Below are positions 19,625 to 22,544 of a stretch of DNA of 64,000 nucleotides, one piece after another. This DNA comes from Escherichia phage phi92. Positions within the stretch are counted from its first letter, which is position 1. Each line of letters begins with the position of its first letter. The DNA lies in the sequence record NC_023693.1. One strand, given 5' to 3'. A model generated the notes under the pieces. That model made no database searches. It saw only the letters and a list, made by a program, of their open reading frames with translations, and was not told the DNA's origin. The position numbers and the translations under genes are program-made.

Positions 19625-19700
19625 GGTTCCATAGCTCACTGACGAGAGCGCACACCTCATAAGTGTCGAGGGCAGGGATTGTAACCCTGGGGAACCACCA
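19625..19700 (+). tRNA. tRNA with CAT anticodon (Met or Ile-lysidine type)
   Basis: 76 nt, D-stem GCTC/GAGC, anticodon loop CTCATAA, encoded CCA; non-standard T-loop and two stem mismatches. Confidence 0.5.
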
Positions 19701-19731
19701 TTTAAAAGGAGGTGCTATGCATCTCCTATAT

Positions 19732-19817
19732 GCAAGTGTGGTGGAATTGGTGATACACATTGTGCTTAAAACGCAACGCTTAAATGCTTGAGGGTTCGAA
19801 TCCCTCCACTTGCACCA
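19732..19817 (+). tRNA. tRNA-Leu (TAA)
   Basis: acceptor GCAAGTG/CACTTGC, anticodon loop CTTAAAA, long variable arm, T-loop TTCGAAT, CCA. Confidence 0.7.
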
Positions 19818-19834
19818 ACACCTAAAAAATATCT

Positions 19835-19862
19835 TGACATTTACTTAGTTTTTTGTTATAGT
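19835..19862 (+). promoter_or_regulatory. sigma70-like promoter inside tRNA cluster
   Basis: TTGACA - 16/17 nt - TATAGT. Confidence 0.5.
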
Positions 19863-19873
19863 TACTATGAAAA

Positions 19874-19955
19874 CGGGGTGTATCTCACCTGACTTCTAAT
19901 CAGGCGTTAACCGAGTAATTGGAGTATGCAGGTTCGAATCCTGTCACCCCGGCCA
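19874..19955 (+). ncRNA. non-canonical tRNA-like element (Arg TCT-type anticodon hairpin, no canonical D-arm)
   Basis: perfect acceptor pairing CGGGGTG/CACCCCG, T-arm GCAGG-TTCGAAT-CCTGT, CCA, anticodon-like hairpin CCTGA-CTTCTAA-TCAGG, but only 7 nt where the D-arm should be and a 23-nt variable region. Confidence 0.4.
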
Positions 19956-20018
19956 AAAAGTTTTAAAAACTACTTGACAAGCAAGATAGTTTTATGTTAG
20001 ATTTAAAGTATGATAACT

Positions 20019-20108
20019 GGAAGGTAGGGCGCAGCGGTGCGCAACCAGGTTTGAACCCTGGCCCATTGTAGCGATACGGTGATGGTTCGACTCCATTATC
20101 TTCCTCCA
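20019..20108 (+). tRNA. tRNA-Ser (TGA)
   Basis: anticodon stem CCAGG/CCTGG with loop TTTGAAC, long variable arm, acceptor GGAAGGT/ATCTTCC, CCA. Confidence 0.7.
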
Positions 20109-20125
20109 AATTCAATGAGTGATTT

Positions 20126-20279
20126 TATGAATTATAAAACTATTGGACAGGTTGTTACCGGAGTTAAGATTGTAAATAATAAAGTTGTTTATGAGTATTC
20201 TAATCTTCAACAATCTGAAGATGGTAAGAATATTCGTATGGTAAAAACAGAACAAAAAGATTCCGGTTGTTTTGAATAA
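20126..20279 (+). CDS. hypothetical small protein (about 50 aa)
   Basis: ORF-track ORF trimmed to first ATG downstream of tRNA; weak RBS. Confidence 0.25.
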
Positions 20280-20287
20280 TTAAAAAC

Positions 20288-20373
20288 GGTAGATTGGTGA
20301 AATGGTAGCCACAACAGTTTGCTAAACTGTCGTCGGAAACGGCGTGTAGGTTCAAGTCCTACATCTACCGCCA
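20288..20373 (+). tRNA. tRNA-Ser (GCT)
   Basis: anticodon stem ACAGT/ACTGT loop TTGCTAA, long variable arm, T-loop TTCAAGT, CCA. Confidence 0.7.
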
Positions 20374-20507
20374 AGTTATCTTTAATGTAGCTTGTAATCT
20401 TACTTTAGCAGAGTAAACTTTCGGCAGATGGTGGCAGCCATTTTACCGATACCCCAATACTTCATAGCTAAGTGCCGCAAACACTGGCTATTTTAAAGAT
20501 AATTTAT

Positions 20508-20583
20508 ACATCGTTAGCTTAGTTGGTAGAGCAAGGGTCTTTTAACTCCAAGGTCGAAGGTTCGAATCCTTCACGATGTACCA
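20508..20583 (+). tRNA. tRNA-Lys (TTT), weak anticodon stem
   Basis: perfect acceptor ACATCGT/ACGATGT, D-loop AGTTGGTA, loop CTTTTAA, T-loop TTCGAAT, CCA; only 3 of 5 anticodon-stem pairs. Confidence 0.55.
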
Positions 20584-20588
20584 AACAT

Positions 20589-20675
20589 GTAGGTATCGCA
20601 TAGCGGCAATTGCTGGAGACTGTAAATCTCTTGCCCTTCGGGGCTTCGTTGGTTCGAGTCCAACTACCTGCACCA
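20589..20675 (+). tRNA. tRNA-Tyr (GTA)
   Basis: anticodon loop CTGTAAA, long variable arm with GCCC-TTCG-GGGC hairpin, T-loop TTCGAGT, CCA. Confidence 0.7.
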
Positions 20676-20682
20676 AATTAAA

Positions 20683-20767
20683 GATGGATTGGCCTAGTGG
20701 TTGGGCGACGGACTGTTAATCCGTGAACGAAAGTTCTAGCAAGGTTCAAATCCTTGATCCATCGCCA
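20683..20767 (+). tRNA. tRNA with GTT anticodon (Asn-type) and unusually long variable arm
   Basis: acceptor GATGGAT/ATCCATC, anticodon stem ACGGA/TCCGT loop CTGTTAA, 15-nt variable arm, T-loop TTCAAAT, CCA. Confidence 0.6.
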
Positions 20768-20769
20768 TA

Positions 20770-20846
20770 TAGTGCTTGTAGAGTTAATAGAAACCTCTAG
20801 AATTTTCTAGAATTGTAGGTATCAAATCCTACCAAGCAAATATTTT
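20770..20846 (+). pseudogene. degenerate tRNA-like element (possible tRNA pseudogene)
   Basis: acceptor-like pairing GTGCTTG/CAAGCAA and T-arm GTAGG-TATCAAAT-CCTAC with an extra base in the loop; middle replaced by palindrome TCTAGAATTTTCTAGA; no CCA. Confidence 0.3.
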
Positions 20847-20921
20847 GCTCCTATCGTATAACGGCTATTACGGTTGCCTTGTAAGCAACTTATCAGGGTT
20901 CGAGTCCTTGTGGGAGCACCA
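20847..20921 (+). tRNA. tRNA-Thr (TGT)
   Basis: anticodon stem GTTGC/GCAAC loop CTTGTAA, T-loop TTCGAGT, CCA. Confidence 0.75.
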
Positions 20922-20943
20922 ATTTAACTCTAAAGGAGTGTAT

Positions 20944-21267
20944 GTGACAGAAAAAGAGTTAGAGAAATATTTTAATATCAATGTTTTCGATGGTTTTGAT
21001 GATATTGAAGATGTTGAAAGATATTATGAAGTAGAGTTAGATAAGGATAACATTGTAATTCTTTCTGCCACTTATGATTGTGCATATTATGAAGGTGAAT
21101 CTCACGTTTATTTCTATGATATGAAAACATCTTTGTTTTATGAAGTACACGCATATCATTGTTCTTGTTATGGCTTAGAAGGTCAGTGGGAACCTGAAGA
21201 AATAGGTGATTTGGACTTTACTATTGCATATCTAAACAGACGTGGTGCATCTACTATTTTAAAATAA
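20944..21267 (+). CDS. hypothetical protein (107 aa)
   Basis: ORF-track ORF trimmed to GTG preceded by AAGGAG so that it no longer overlaps tRNA-Thr. Confidence 0.45.
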   Translation: MTEKELEKYFNINVFDGFDDIEDVERYYEVELDKDNIVILSATYDCAYYEGESHVYFYDMKTSLFYEVHAYHCSCYGLEGQWEPEEIGDLDFTIAYLNRRGASTILK

Positions 21268-21282
21268 ATATTAAAAGCCTCT

Positions 21283-21311
21283 TGACAAAGGGGCTAATAA
21301 TATGTTAGAGT
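21283..21311 (+). promoter_or_regulatory. sigma70-like promoter upstream of tRNA-Gly
   Basis: TTGACA - 17 nt - TAGAGT. Confidence 0.5.
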
Positions 21312-21322
21312 AATATTGTTAA

Positions 21323-21397
21323 GCGGGTATAGTGTTAATGGTAGCATATGAGGTTTCCACCCTCCAGGTGCAGGTTCAAGTCCTGTTACTCGCTCCA
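21323..21397 (+). tRNA. tRNA-Gly (TCC)
   Basis: acceptor GCGGGTA/TACTCGC, anticodon TCC in GAGG-TTTCCAC-CCTC, T-loop TTCAAGT, CCA. Confidence 0.65.
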
Positions 21398-21737
21398 AGA
21401 TTATTTAAATGGAATCGCTAGAGAAAATTTCTCTTTTCGCTCATGGTTTTCTCCTTCAAACTCTAGCGGTTCTTTTTAAGTGATTTTTTAGTTTATTGGA
21501 GATTCACTGCCTTAGTGTGAGCTAAAATCGAGGAGCCATCGAACTGTCTGATTAATGATTTGCGAATCATTATAGTTTTAAGACCCCGGCAGTTTTATGG
21601 TGTACCTCTTGAATGTGAATGATGACGGGTTTATGGTTATCCTGGTCGTTAAATATCCAAAAACCTATGTTCCCCTTGAGGGCTTGCGCAGGCAATGCCA
21701 ATAAGTCCTGCATTTTCATTTAAAAGAGAATTTATAA
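21398..21737 (+). ncRNA. ORF-free structured spacer inside tRNA cluster (candidate small stable RNA or degraded tRNA copies)
   Basis: 340 nt without ORF of 60 aa or more; inverted repeat CGCTAGAG / CTCTAGCG; 13-nt duplicate TTTATTGGAGATT of the tRNA-Gln 5' junction. Confidence 0.3.
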
Positions 21738-21828
21738 TGGAAAAAGATGAACTTAAGTATGCTAAGCCTCTGGCTTCTGCTGCACGAAAAGCAGTTCGTC
21801 ACTTTGTGGTAACACTGAAGTAATTTAT

Positions 21829-21903
21829 TGGAGATTGGCCTAGTGGGAAGGCAACGGCCTTTGAAGTCGTGATGACTAGGTTCGATTCCTAGATCTCCAG
21901 CCA
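21829..21903 (+). tRNA. tRNA-Gln (TTG)
   Basis: acceptor TGGAGAT/ATCTCCA, anticodon stem ACGGC/GTCGT loop CTTTGAA, T-loop TTCGATT, CCA. Confidence 0.75.
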
Positions 21904-21910
21904 AGATTTA

Positions 21911-21986
21911 CAGTGCGTAGCGCAGTTGGTAGCGTGGGAGCCTTGGACGCTTCAGGTCGCAGGTTCGAGTCCTGCCGCACTGACCA
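21911..21986 (+). tRNA. tRNA-Pro (TGG)
   Basis: acceptor CAGTGCG/CGCACTG, anticodon loop CTTGGAC, T-loop TTCGAGT, CCA. Confidence 0.75.
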
Positions 21987-21991
21987 AATTT

Positions 21992-22066
21992 GCAGAGATA
22001 GCTGAGACGGATTAGTGCTACCCTGAAAAGGTAGAAAGGATGGATCGTTACCATCTCTCTGCACCA
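21992..22066 (+). tRNA. tRNA-Phe (GAA)
   Basis: acceptor GCAGAGA/TCTCTGC, anticodon stem CTACC/GGTAG loop CTGAAAA, CCA; atypical T-loop ATCGTTA. Confidence 0.6.
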
Positions 22067-22143
22067 AATAACACCATCCAAGGAGAATACTTGGTTAACT
22101 GTCAATAGCACATTGAGGCTTCTTACAGTGGTGTACTTATTAT

Positions 22144-22228
22144 GGCTAAGTGGTGGAATGGTATACACGATACGCTTAGAACGTATTGCCCCAAGGGATT
22201 GTGAGTTCGAGTCTCACCTTAGCTACCA
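22144..22228 (+). tRNA. tRNA-Leu (TAG)
   Basis: anticodon stem ATACG/CGTAT loop CTTAGAA, long variable arm, T-loop TTCGAGT, CCA. Confidence 0.75.
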
Positions 22229-22243
22229 AATTATTACAAGTTT

Positions 22244-22322
22244 CGCGGGATAGAGGAGTCTGGTCGTCCTCGCCAGTTTCATATGCTGGAGATCGTAGGT
22301 TCAAATCCTACTCCCGTTACCA
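22244..22322 (+). tRNA. tRNA with CAT anticodon (Met or Ile-lysidine type)
   Basis: anticodon stem CCAGT/GCTGG loop TTCATAT, T-loop TTCAAAT, CCA; position 1-72 unpaired. Confidence 0.6.
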
Positions 22323-22380
22323 ACAAATACCTCCCTTCTGGTGTAATGATTAAATTACATTGACACTTCAAGGAACTCAT

Positions 22381-22463
22381 AGCCGGGTAGATTTAAAAGA
22401 GTATGGTACTCAATATGGCTCCAAACCATAGATCAGGGGGTTCGATTCCTCACCTTGCTGCCA
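22381..22463 (+). ncRNA. non-canonical tRNA-like element with Trp-type (CCA) anticodon hairpin
   Basis: anticodon hairpin TATGG-CTCCAAA-CCATA, T-loop TTCGATT, CCA end; 5' half about 7 nt too long for a canonical D-arm. Confidence 0.4.
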
Positions 22464-22468
22464 ATTAT

Positions 22469-22544
22469 TGTGGTATCGTACAGATGGTTAGTACACTCGA
22501 CCGATAATCGAGAAACAACGGTTCGACTCCGTTTACCACGACCA
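22469..22544 (+). tRNA. tRNA-Ile (GAT)
   Basis: acceptor TGTGGTA/TACCACG, anticodon stem CTCGA/TCGAG loop CCGATAA, T-loop TTCGACT, CCA. Confidence 0.7.

What the first reader, a model, noticed from the sequence alone, without database searches (positions are those of the whole stretch)
19625..22544. Dense tRNA cluster of about 16 genes with internal promoters
A 2.9-kb block holds about 16 plus-strand tRNA genes (two CAT-type, Leu-TAA, Leu-TAG, Ser-TGA, Ser-GCT, Lys, Tyr, Asn-type, Thr, Gly, Gln, Pro, Phe, Ile-GAT) plus three non-canonical elements, interspersed with TTGACA promoters. All carry an encoded CCA. Together with the nearby RNA-repair cassette this suggests the phage supplements, replaces or repairs host tRNAs.
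Basis: seen in the sequence. Interest (0 to 1): 0.55.

Follow-up and report, generated by a model that had tools for sequence, protein, structure and literature searches.

The report
Phage tRNA cluster hiding rewired tRNAs
The block is a real and already published tRNA gene cluster of a phi92-like E. coli phage, but two of its unannotated members are conserved tRNAs of unusual architecture, including an arginine tRNA with no normal D-arm that occurs in hundreds of unrelated phages.

Summary
Window 19625-22544 carries 17 plus-strand tRNA or tRNA-like genes, and all end in an encoded CCA. ARAGORN finds 15, Rfam adds one, and comparative analysis adds one more. Four strong sigma-70-like promoters sit 12-16 nt upstream of tRNAs or upstream of the first ORF. 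The window is a Justusliebigvirus (about 98% identical to phage ESCO9), whose 15-16 tRNAs are already published, so the cluster itself is known. Its likely role is to supply A/U-ending codons. AGA is the codon most enriched relative to E. coli (5.6-fold). It may also replace host tRNAs cut by defence nucleases: tRNA-Lys and tRNA-Thr differ at the PARIS AriB cleavage site. A kinase, Rnl1 ligase and phosphoesterase repair cassette lies 6 kb upstream. The unexpected part is element 19874-19955, a tRNA-Arg(UCU) without a D hairpin. A 3-bp helix closes over the anticodon arm and a D-loop-like UAAUUGGA follows it. I found 65 sequence variants in at least 7 phage lineages. All have Arg anticodons, and 19 of 20 base pairs show compensatory changes. 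It is almost never annotated, and I found no description in the papers I could search. Element 22381-22463 is a conserved 8/4 tRNA-Trp-like gene. A circularly permuted T4-like rIII fragment is inserted before tRNA-Gln.

The parts
19291..19320 (+). promoter-like site P1 (TTGACA-18-TAAGAT, TG-extended), upstream of ORF 19351
19351..19617 (+). 88-aa ORF of unknown function (phrog_15056), first gene of the unit
19625..19700 (+). tRNA with CAU anticodon. It is deviant: T-loop ATTGTAA, no GG in the D-loop, A7.G66 mismatch. It is below the Rfam threshold.
19732..19817 (+). tRNA-Leu(UAA)
19834..19862 (+). promoter-like site P2 (TTGACA-17-TATAGT, 11 of 12, TG-extended), ending 12 nt before the rewired tRNA-Arg
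19874..19955 (+). rewired tRNA-Arg(UCU). Layout: 7-bp acceptor, linker UAUCUCA, anticodon arm (loop CUUCUAA), spacer CGUUAACC, GAG pairing with linker CUC, D-loop-like UAAUUGGA, T arm, G73, CCA.
19974..20003 (+). promoter-like site P3 (TTGACA-18-TAGATT, TG-extended), conserved in Phapecoctavirus
20019..20108 (+). tRNA-Ser(UGA) with an 8-bp acceptor, 4-bp T stem, 5-bp D stem with a 4-nt loop, and a long variable arm (8/4, tRNA-Sec-like fold)
   Evidence: type described in PMC5389517
20127..20279 (+). 50-aa ORF of unknown function (phrog_22441)
20288..20373 (+). tRNA-Ser(GCU)
20508..20583 (+). tRNA-Lys(UUU). The anticodon stem has only 3 pairs (A27.A43, U31.C39). Positions 39-41 are C,U,C where E. 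coli has U,C,A.
20589..20675 (+). tRNA-Tyr(GUA)
20683..20767 (+). tRNA-Asn(GUU), 85 nt, with an unusual long variable hairpin (GAAC-GAAA-GUUC)
20847..20921 (+). tRNA-Thr(UGU). Position 39 is G where E. coli has U.
20944..21267 (+). 107-aa ORF of unknown function (phrog_8792)
21282..21311 (+). promoter-like site P4 (TTGACA-18-TAGAGT, TG-extended), ending 12 nt before tRNA-Gly; conserved in Phapecoctavirus
21323..21397 (+). tRNA-Gly(UCC)
21398..21488 (+). long imperfect hairpin followed by a T-run (z = -5.1). It may be a processing or termination signal and is also present in phages that lack the insert.
21489..21836 (+). T4-like DNA, 98-100% identical to phage RB68 (3' end of rIII plus the rIII/30.9 intergenic region). 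It is circularly permuted and flanked by the 13-bp repeat TTTATTGGAGATT at 21492-21504 and 21824-21836.
21829..21903 (+). tRNA-Gln(UUG)
21911..21986 (+). tRNA-Pro(UGG)
21992..22066 (+). tRNA-Phe(GAA), with a deviant T-loop ATCGTTA
22144..22228 (+). tRNA-Leu(UAG)
22244..22322 (+). tRNA with CAU anticodon (second copy; C1.U72 mismatch)
22381..22463 (+). tRNA-Trp(CCA)-like gene. It has an 8-bp acceptor, a 4-bp T stem, a 10-nt linker, a 5-bp D hairpin with a UGG loop, G73 and CCA. It is unannotated.
22469..22544 (+). tRNA-Ile(GAU)
22552..22623 (+). structured element after the last tRNA, about 90% conserved in Phapecoctavirus although the flanks differ. It has no CCA and its function is unknown.
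22936..22960 (+). intrinsic-terminator-like hairpin plus T-run after ORF 22656-22925; probable end of the last transcription unit
11394..11798 (-). P-loop kinase (Pfam AAA_33 1.8e-10; PHROG polynucleotide kinase 1.3e-9)
11799..12731 (-). T4 Rnl1-family RNA ligase (PF09511 3.8e-14; phrog_562 2.8e-68)
12733..13284 (-). phosphoesterase (phrog_547 2.1e-54; Metallophos_2 below threshold)

Best explanation
This is the tRNA operon region of a virulent Justusliebigvirus (phi92-like) coliphage. It holds seventeen CCA-ended tRNA genes in about four transcription units. Each unit is driven by a strong sigma-70 promoter with an extended -10 that leaves a leader of only a few nucleotides. The transcripts are presumably cut by host RNase P and 3' exonucleases. 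Because CCA is encoded, no CCA addition is needed. The tRNAs are then charged by host synthetases. They appear to serve two purposes. First, they raise the supply of tRNAs for the A/U-ending codons that this 37% G+C genome uses far more than E. coli does, above all AGA, ACA, CUA and AUA. Second, they provide copies that differ from host tRNAs at sites attacked by tRNA-cleaving defence nucleases, so translation continues when host tRNAs are cut. The nearby kinase, phosphoesterase and Rnl1 cassette would reseal broken anticodon loops. Within the cluster, the AGA decoder is not a cloverleaf. It belongs to a phage-restricted class of tRNA-Arg in which the D hairpin is replaced. A 3-bp helix between positions 11-13 and a GAG triplet located 3' of the anticodon arm extends the anticodon limb. 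A D-loop-like UAAUUGGA, which carries equivalents of G18, G19 and A20, follows that helix and leads into a normal T arm. Shown here: the genes, their structures and covariation, codon statistics, promoter motifs and protein domains. Inferred: expression, processing, charging, decoding and nuclease resistance.
For: Gene calls. Identity and published annotation: about 98% to ESCO9, with 15 tRNAs annotated at the same positions. BME3, ESCO8, ESCO9 and ESCO32 are reported with 15-16 tRNAs (PMC12210895). Promoters. Codon supply: AGA is 11.7 per 1000 in the phage against 2.1 in E. coli, the highest ratio of all codons. ACA is 4.9-fold, CTA 3.0-fold and ATA 2.4-fold enriched. Cognate against non-cognate codons give p=0.007 (the E. 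coli table is from my own knowledge of the Kazusa K-12 values). AGA is read as Arg: AGA codons fall on the invariant Arg of the Prs motif YARQDR and on the Arg of the Prs segment aligned to E. coli 'DKRRP'. Defence evasion: the AriB site in E. coli tRNA-Lys and tRNA-Thr is U36-A-A-U39-C40|A41, and the T5 changes U39A and A41C block cleavage (PMC12409363). The window tRNA-Lys has C39, U40 and C41, and tRNA-Thr has G39. Phage tRNA-Tyr expressed from a strong phage promoter defeats retron-Eco7, and phage tRNA-Lys defeats PrrC170 (PMC11555353). Repair cassette. Rewired tRNA-Arg: 232 GenBank phage records hold it over at least 80% of its length. It occurs in Felixounavirus, Kuravirus, Asteriusvirus, Sugarlandvirus, Mydovirus and other Vequintavirinae. 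There are 65 distinct variants with anticodons UCU 55, CCU 5, ACG 4 and UCG 1, all Arg. In 34 sequences 98.6% of cells are paired, and 19 of 20 pairs have changes on both sides, including all 3 pairs of the new helix; 0 of 500 shuffles reach this. A covariance model separates members (89-105 bits) from ordinary tRNAs (41 bits or less). Sister lineages carry a canonical tRNA-Arg(UCU) in the same slot after Leu-UAA. Carriers with up to 28 tRNAs usually lack a canonical Arg-UCU.
Against: There are no expression, processing or aminoacylation data. ARAGORN does not recognise the rewired tRNA-Arg or the Trp-like gene. Where ArgRS would find its A20 identity nucleotide is only guessed from the GGA motif. 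Codon supply does not explain every gene: ATC, AGC, TTC and ATG are not enriched. tRNA-Asn keeps the E. coli-like AriB site. Justusliebigvirus phages remain sensitive to the tRNA nuclease Ec2ApeA (bioRxiv 10.64898/2026.01.26.701840), so protection is at best partial. Two contigs carry both a canonical and a rewired Arg-UCU, so the rewired one is not always the only decoder. Part of the core conservation is forced by the search patterns I used.
Confidence: 0.72

Rival explanations
1. The cluster serves only to compensate codon usage. The sequence and structural oddities of individual tRNAs are neutral drift tolerated by the translation machinery and have no role against host defences.
For: The codon enrichment is clear. 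tRNA-Asn keeps the host-like AriB site. The genus is still sensitive to Ec2ApeA.
Against: Several tRNAs serve codons that are not enriched (ATC, AGC, TTC, TGG). The Lys and Thr differences fall exactly on the positions shown to control AriB cleavage. The invariant cores of the rewired tRNA-Arg across unrelated phage families argue for selection, not drift. An RNA repair cassette is kept alongside.
Confidence: 0.2
2. The non-canonical elements (rewired Arg, Trp-like) do not take part in translation. They would be decoys or competitive inhibitors of host tRNA nucleases or modification enzymes, or processing handles for the operon.
For: They deviate from the cloverleaf that EF-Tu, the ribosome and synthetases normally see. 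Authors studying PARIS raise the possibility that overexpressed viral tRNAs act as inhibitors (PMC12409363). The 2024 NAR abstract states that all known bacterial tRNAs are canonical (PMC11551756).
Against: The anticodon varies only among Arg anticodons (UCU, CCU, ACG, UCG) while the stems change freely. The element takes the slot of the canonical tRNA-Arg(UCU) in syntenic clusters. It matches the codon most enriched in the phage. It keeps a 7-bp acceptor, U33, purine 37, the TTCGA T-loop, G or A at position 73 in 58 of 65 variants, and CCA.
Confidence: 0.15
3. The elements that standard tRNA finders miss are decaying pseudogenes left by erosion of the cluster.
For: Some spacers do look like tRNA wrecks. 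For example, 20768-20846 has an acceptor-like and a T-arm-like hairpin but no 7-nt anticodon loop and no CCA.
Against: For 19874 and 22381 the compensatory changes in every helix, across phage families that share no other DNA similarity, rule out decay.
Confidence: 0.03

Closest known systems
tRNA gene clusters of large virulent coliphages (T4, T5, Felix O1; published sets for Justusliebigvirus BME3, ESCO8, ESCO9, ESCO32)
   Same: They share dense same-strand tRNA genes with small ORFs and occasional homing-endonuclease genes between them, a bias to A/U-ending codons, and encoded CCA. The gene order is the same as in ESCO9.
   Different: Published lists for the genus give 15-16 tRNAs and no Arg or Trp. 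Here 17 are supported, including two non-canonical ones. This isolate also carries a T4-like insert before tRNA-Gln.
T5 tRNA-Lys, tRNA-Thr and tRNA-Asn variants that neutralise PARIS (AriB), and T5 tRNA-Tyr against retron-Eco7
   Same: The same three isoacceptors plus Tyr lie side by side (20508-20921). Lys and Thr carry substitutions at positions 39 and 41. Strong phage promoters are present.
   Different: The substitutions are different bases (C39, U40, C41 and G39, rather than A39 and C41). Resistance is untested. Asn is host-like at the site but has a long variable arm.
T4 Pnkp plus Rnl1 tRNA anticodon-loop repair pathway (counter to PrrC)
   Same: An Rnl1-family ligase lies next to a polynucleotide-kinase-like P-loop protein and a phosphoesterase.
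   Different: The kinase and phosphatase are separate proteins. The phosphoesterase is of the calcineurin-like metallophosphoesterase type, not the HAD-type phosphatase domain of T4 Pnkp (own knowledge). The cassette is 6 kb away on the other strand.
(8/4) tRNAs and allo-tRNAs (Mukai et al., NAR 2017, PMC5389517)
   Same: Ser(UGA) 20019 and the Trp-like 22381 have 8-bp acceptor and 4-bp T stems. The paper reports 8/4 tRNA-Ser in bacteriophages.
   Different: An 8/4 tRNA with a CCA (Trp) anticodon, a short variable loop and a 10-nt acceptor-to-D linker is not among the kinds named in the passages of that paper that I read.
D-arm-lacking mitochondrial tRNAs (e.g. metazoan mt-tRNA-Ser(UCU/GCU))
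   Same: There is no D hairpin between the acceptor and anticodon stems, and the anticodon limb is extended instead (review PMC7609411).
   Different: The phage tRNA is full length (78-88 nt). It keeps the canonical T-loop and a GG-A motif that could still form the elbow. It has Arg anticodons and works, if it works, with unmodified bacterial translation factors.

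Membership tests
Canonical tRNA (Rfam RF00005 cloverleaf) | Covariance-model score at or above the gathering score (29 bits) | tested here: met
   14 of 17 genes reach it, including the rewired Arg at 38.6 bits. 19625, 20019 and 22381 do not.
Canonical tRNA (Rfam RF00005 cloverleaf) | D-arm hairpin (stem 10-13/22-25 closing the D-loop) between the acceptor and anticodon stems | tested here: not met
   This row concerns 19874-19955. Only 7 nt separate the acceptor and anticodon stems. Positions 11-13 pair instead with a GAG triplet located 3' of the anticodon arm. The other 16 genes have a D hairpin.
Canonical tRNA (Rfam RF00005 cloverleaf) | 7-bp acceptor, 5-bp anticodon stem with a 7-nt loop and U33, 5-bp T stem with a TTCRA loop, all kept by compensatory change | tested here: met
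   Rewired Arg: 98.6% of cells paired and 19 of 20 pairs with changes on both sides. Trp-like: 89% of cells paired and 10 pairs with changes on both sides.
Canonical tRNA (Rfam RF00005 cloverleaf) | Processed, aminoacylated, ribosome-active product | not testable with these tools
   Needs tRNA sequencing, charging assays and reporters.
Justusliebigvirus tRNA cluster | Collinear DNA identity with annotated genomes of the genus | tested here: met
   98.2% identity over 100% of 19300-22900 to ESCO9, with tRNAs annotated at the same places.
T4-type tRNA repair (Pnkp + Rnl1) | Rnl1-family RNA ligase | tested here: met
   PF09511 3.8e-14; phrog_562 2.8e-68.
T4-type tRNA repair (Pnkp + Rnl1) | Bifunctional Pnkp with the 5'-kinase fused to a HAD-type 3'-phosphatase | tested here: not met
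   A separate 134-aa P-loop kinase-like protein and a separate 183-aa metallophosphoesterase-type protein. It plausibly works like Pnkp but is not the same protein.
T4-type tRNA repair (Pnkp + Rnl1) | Heals and seals tRNA cut in the anticodon loop | not testable with these tools
   Biochemistry is required.
(8/4) tRNAs / allo-tRNA | 8-bp acceptor stem plus 4-bp T stem | tested here: met
   Ser(UGA): GGAAGGTA/TATCTTCC and ATGG/CCAT. Trp-like: the 8th pair covaries (T:A, C:G, A:T) and the first T-stem position is unpaired in 4 of 5 sequences.
(8/4) tRNAs / allo-tRNA | Long variable arm (serine identity) | tested here: inconclusive
   Present in Ser(UGA) 20019. Absent in the Trp-like gene, which has a 5-nt variable loop.
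D-arm-lacking mitochondrial tRNAs | Truncated body with loss of the D-loop/T-loop elbow nucleotides | tested here: not met
   The rewired Arg is 82 nt. It keeps TTCGA in the T-loop and an invariant GGA. It resembles these tRNAs only in lacking the D hairpin.
Nuclease-resistant phage tRNA variants (T5 tRNA-Lys type) | Substitutions at positions 39 and/or 41 of the AriB site | tested here: met
   Lys has C39, U40, C41 and Thr has G39. Asn is unchanged.
Nuclease-resistant phage tRNA variants (T5 tRNA-Lys type) | Demonstrated resistance to cleavage and rescue of infection | not testable with these tools
   Requires AriB, PrrC or PtuAB assays.

The most novel reading that the evidence does not exclude
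The element at 19874-19955 represents a previously undescribed, phage-restricted structural class of working tRNA-Arg. The D hairpin is replaced by a helix that closes over the anticodon arm, and the D-loop sequence is moved to the 3' side of that helix. If so, bacterial ArgRS, EF-Tu and ribosomes routinely use a non-cloverleaf tRNA during infection by Felix O1-like, phi92-like, T5-like (Sugarlandvirus), Kuravirus and jumbo phages. The rewiring may have been selected because host defence nucleases recognise or cut the D-arm. The 8/4 tRNA-Trp-like gene at 22381-22463 would be a second case of the same trend.
Probability: 0.5. Interest if true: 0.8.

Novelty: new variant of a known kind. Interest (0 to 1): 0.6.

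Why it matters
The cluster itself adds nothing new, because phage tRNA clusters and this genus's set are published. Two things matter. First, standard annotation misses real tRNA genes in hundreds of deposited phage genomes. The rewired tRNA-Arg is labelled 'none', 'hypothetical protein' or 'tRNA-OTHER'. As a result, tRNA counts and codon-usage studies of phages are systematically short of the decoder for AGA, the codon most enriched in this phage. Second, a natural tRNA without a D hairpin that functions in E. coli cells would contradict the working assumption that all bacterial-system tRNAs are cloverleafs. It would make the question of what the translation machinery minimally needs testable with easy model phages such as Felix O1, phi92-like phages and the BASEL collection. 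It would also offer a ready scaffold for orthogonal tRNA design. In addition, it would extend the idea that phage tRNAs evade tRNA-targeting defences from point changes in the anticodon loop to remodelling of the tRNA body.

Tried and rejected
1. A first IMG/VR scan with the T-arm and acceptor sequence GCAGGTTCGAATCCTGTCACCCCG returned almost only ordinary tRNA-Pro genes.

2. A mini-hairpin model for the variable region of the rewired tRNA-Arg (positions 38-40 with 47-49, as in the MFE fold) fitted the main subfamily. There, only Y/Y changes occur opposite G. It is not possible in the divergent members. I rejected it in favour of the 11-13:GAG helix, which covaries.

3. Reassignment of AGA, prompted by the parallel with mitochondrial tRNA-Ser(UCU), is rejected. 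AGA codons sit on invariant catalytic arginines of PRPP synthetase.

4. I tested whether the family is of bacterial origin. A scan of one genome for each of 185,579 species found only two MAG contigs. The family is therefore phage-restricted.

5. Rfam at permissive E-values finds nothing in the T4-like insert or in spacers 20374-20507, 20768-20846, 22067-22143 and 22545-22640. Folding z-scores are modest (-3.0, -3.1, -1.9 and 0.0). I could not assign these, and 20768-20846 looks like a tRNA remnant.

6. The TTGACA at 22360 is not a promoter by the scan.

7. Literature searches gave no description of this tRNA-Arg. The queries covered D-armless or non-canonical tRNAs in phages and a 2020 review of non-canonical natural tRNAs. 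Subscription-only papers could not be searched.

Full report
WHAT IS THERE

ARAGORN finds 15 tRNA genes in the whole 64-kb window. Rfam's tRNA model reaches its curated threshold for 14 loci (48-65.5 bits). One of these, 19874-19952 at 38.6 bits, is not seen by ARAGORN. Two ARAGORN genes are missed by Rfam. These are Met-CAU at 19625 and Ser-UGA at 20019, which scores 35 bits on the tRNA-Sec model. The union is therefore 16 genes, and every one ends in an encoded CCA.

WHERE IT COMES FROM

The region is 98.2% identical over its full length to Escherichia phage vB_EcoM_ESCO9. It is 97-98% identical to some fifty other Justusliebigvirus genomes (phi92-like, Stephanstirmvirinae). In ESCO9 the same 15 tRNAs are annotated at the same positions. 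They lie between a PRPP synthetase and nicotinamide phosphoribosyltransferase pair and the lysis and terminase genes. The tRNA sets of this genus are published: BME3 has 16, and ESCO8, ESCO9 and ESCO32 have 15-16 (PMC12210895). The cluster as such is therefore already known.

TRANSCRIPTION

Four sites match TTGACA-N17/18-TAnnnT at 10 of 12 or better with a TG-extended -10. All are on the + strand, at 19291, 19834, 19974 and 21282.
- The three internal sites end 12-16 nt before the first base of a tRNA: the Arg-like element, Ser-UGA and Gly.
- The sites before Ser-UGA and Gly recur at the equivalent places in the sister genus Phapecoctavirus.
- The overall count of weaker promoter-like matches is not above chance.
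- A good terminator-like hairpin follows the ORF downstream of the cluster, at 22936-22960.
- Strong private promoters fit the finding that T5 needs a strong phage promoter on tRNA-Tyr to outrun retron-Eco7 (PMC11555353).

WHAT THE CLUSTER IS FOR

Codon supply. I compared codon use in 51 non-overlapping ORFs of the window (47.9 kb) with E. coli K-12. The E. coli table is from my own knowledge of the Kazusa values.
- Codons that pair perfectly with the phage anticodons are enriched (median ratio 1.62 against 0.78, one-sided Mann-Whitney p=0.007).
- AGA is the most enriched of all 61 codons (11.7 against 2.1 per thousand).
- ACA, CTA and ATA are also among the most enriched, at 4.9-, 3.0- and 2.4-fold.
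- Codon supply does not explain the tRNAs for ATC, AGC, TTC, ATG or TGG.

Replacement of host tRNAs. A second role is suggested by work on tRNA-cleaving defences.
[quoted passage not shown] It cuts tRNA-Asn(GUU) more weakly.
- T5 escapes through U39A and A41C (PMC12409363).
- In the window, Lys, Tyr, Asn and Thr lie side by side. Lys reads C39-U40-C41, which leaves only three pairs in its anticodon stem, and Thr reads G39. Asn is host-like at the site but has a long variable hairpin.

Repair.
- a P-loop polynucleotide-kinase-like protein (11394-11798);
- a T4 Rnl1-family ligase (11799-12731; PF09511 3.8e-14, phrog_562 2.8e-68);
- a phosphoesterase (12733-13284; phrog_547 2.1e-54).

It would work like T4 Pnkp plus Rnl1, but it is not the same protein set.

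THE REWIRED tRNA-Arg (19874-19955)

Structure in the window. Its minimum-energy fold has a 7-bp acceptor stem, an anticodon arm with loop CUUCUAA (anticodon UCU) and a canonical T arm. It also has G73 and CCA. Only seven nucleotides (UAUCUCA) stand where the D-arm should be, and the 'variable' region is 23 nt long. Its acceptor and T arm are almost identical to those of the canonical T5-like tRNA-Arg(UCU).

Distribution. BLAST finds the whole element at 82-88% identity in 232 GenBank phage records from unrelated groups. These are Felixounavirus, Kuravirus, Asteriusvirus (jumbo), Sugarlandvirus, Mydovirus and other Vequintavirinae. It is almost always unannotated, and it is 'tRNA-OTHER' in two records. 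Pattern scans of IMG/VR added many contigs of 25-360 kb. One genome for each of 185,579 bacterial and archaeal species gave only two MAG contigs.

Family properties.
- A parser found 65 distinct variants. Their anticodons are UCU (55), CCU (5), ACG (4) and UCG (1), so all are arginine.
- In an alignment of 34 diverse members, 98.6% of cells form pairs and 19 of 20 pairs show changes on both sides. None of 500 shuffles, and no slid register, comes close.
- A short helix between linker positions 11-13 and the triplet just before an invariant UAAUUGGA covaries: CUC/GAG, CUG/CAG, GC/GC.
- The alternative mini-hairpin of the MFE fold is not conserved, so I rejected it.
- A covariance model separates members (89-105 bits) from all ordinary tRNAs (41 bits or less).

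Proposed architecture, 5' to 3':
- acceptor stem, then U8 A9 N10;
- positions 11-13, which form the 5' strand of the new helix, then N14;
- the anticodon arm;
- a 3-8-nt spacer;
- the 3' strand of the new helix (GAG);
- UAAUUGGA;
- a 4-10-nt connector;
- the T arm and the acceptor 3' strand.

The UAAUUGGA motif resembles the D-loop of canonical tRNA-Arg (AAUGGAUA in the Phapecoctavirus gene). It could supply G18, G19 and the ArgRS identity base A20. The identity rule is from my own knowledge.

Evidence that it decodes.
- The anticodon is restricted to Arg.
- It occupies the slot that canonical tRNA-Arg(UCU) holds in Phapecoctavirus and Klebsiella phage 05F01.
- Most carriers lack a canonical Arg-UCU, even with 20-28 other tRNAs.
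- AGA is highly enriched in the phage.
- AGA codons fall on invariant arginines of PRPP synthetase, so AGA is not reassigned.

Why the D-arm might be rewired is speculative. AriB is reported to contact the D-loop, and type I-A retron effectors are said to cut D-loops (PMC12916289).

Prior description. I found none. A 2024 NAR abstract states that all known bacterial tRNAs are cloverleafs. A 2020 review of natural non-canonical tRNAs mentions D-armless tRNAs only in mitochondria and never mentions phages.

OTHER NON-CANONICAL MEMBERS

- Ser(UGA) at 20019 has an 8-bp acceptor stem, a 4-bp T stem, a 5-bp D stem with a 4-nt loop, and a long variable arm. This 8/4 type is already reported in phages (PMC5389517).
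- Element 22381-22463 lies between the second CAU tRNA and Ile. It is a tRNA-Trp(CCA)-like gene with A1:U72, G73 and CCA.
  - Homologues occur in Klebsiella, Citrobacter, Hafnia and Pectobacterium phages. With these, 10 pairs show double changes in only five sequences.
  - An eighth acceptor pair covaries (T:A, C:G, A:T), so it is also 8/4.
  - It has a 10-nt linker before a D hairpin whose loop is an invariant UGG.
  - Neither ARAGORN nor Rfam calls it.
- Met-CAU at 19625 and Phe at 21992 have deviant T-loops.
- Asn has a long variable arm.

With the Trp-like gene the cluster holds 17 CCA-ended tRNA genes.

VERDICT

The finding is correct and its interpretation is reasonable, but the cluster is already known. 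These turn out to be conserved, unannotated tRNAs of unusual architecture. One of them defines a large, phage-restricted class of tRNA-Arg that apparently has not been described.

Noticed in passing
window 21489-21836: A 332-bp piece of T4-like DNA sits between tRNA-Gly and tRNA-Gln. It is 98-100% identical to RB68 (last 85 nt of rIII, the rIII/30.9 intergenic region and the first 9 nt of gene 30.9). It is circularly permuted relative to T4-like genomes. It is flanked by a 13-bp direct repeat (TTTATTGGAGATT, 21492-21504 and 21824-21836) that is single-copy at the empty site in phage Nernie and in RB68. This is the pattern expected from single-crossover integration of a small circle. It creates a 28-codon chimeric ORF (21737-21823) that joins the 30.9 start to the last 27 codons of rIII. 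About half of the closest relatives have it.
   Followed up: partly
window 22381-22463: An unannotated 8/4 tRNA-Trp(CCA)-like gene with a 10-nt acceptor-to-D linker and a UGG D-loop. It is conserved with compensatory changes in Stephanstirmvirinae, Ounavirinae and Certrevirus phages.
   Followed up: yes
window 22552-22623: A 72-nt element directly after the last tRNA is about 90% identical in Phapecoctavirus, although the preceding tRNA (Ile against Met) and the downstream DNA differ. It contains a T-arm-like hairpin but no acceptor pairing or CCA. It may be a small stable RNA like T4 species 1 and 2 (own knowledge), or a processing signal.
   Followed up: partly
window 21398-21488: A 91-nt imperfect hairpin with a closing stem of more than 20 bp, followed by a T-run (z = -5.1). 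It lies between tRNA-Gly and the insert and is also present at the empty site. It may be an RNase III site or a terminator.
   Followed up: no
window 20768-20846 and 20374-20507: The spacers fold better than shuffles (z about -3). The first looks like a tRNA remnant, with a 6-bp acceptor-like stem and a T-arm-like hairpin but no 7-nt anticodon loop and no CCA.
   Followed up: no
L185:13348-13429, L172:2689-2766, L154:9-87: Some contigs carry two rewired tRNA-Arg genes with different anticodons (CCU plus UCU; UCU plus ACG). L154 has a D-arm-less element with a UGA (Ser) anticodon loop and a long variable hairpin, so loss of the D hairpin may not be limited to Arg.
   Followed up: partly
L128 (phage heid), L131 (Spivey), L132 (Alf5), L232 (DU_PP_I): An HNH homing-endonuclease gene starts within or directly after the rewired tRNA-Arg in Felix O1-like and Sugarlandvirus phages, and directly after the Trp-like gene in DU_PP_I. 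Endonuclease-driven mobility might explain how these tRNAs spread between unrelated phages.
   Followed up: no
GenBank MG065639, MG065656, MG065645, MG065689: Records named 'Campylobacter phage' A150, C3, A145 and A110a are 98% identical to this E. coli phage genus over the region. They are probably mislabelled or contaminant assemblies.
   Followed up: no
window 20683-20767: tRNA-Asn(GUU) is 85 nt long with a class-II-like long variable hairpin, which is unusual for Asn. The same form is present in Phapecoctavirus.
   Followed up: no
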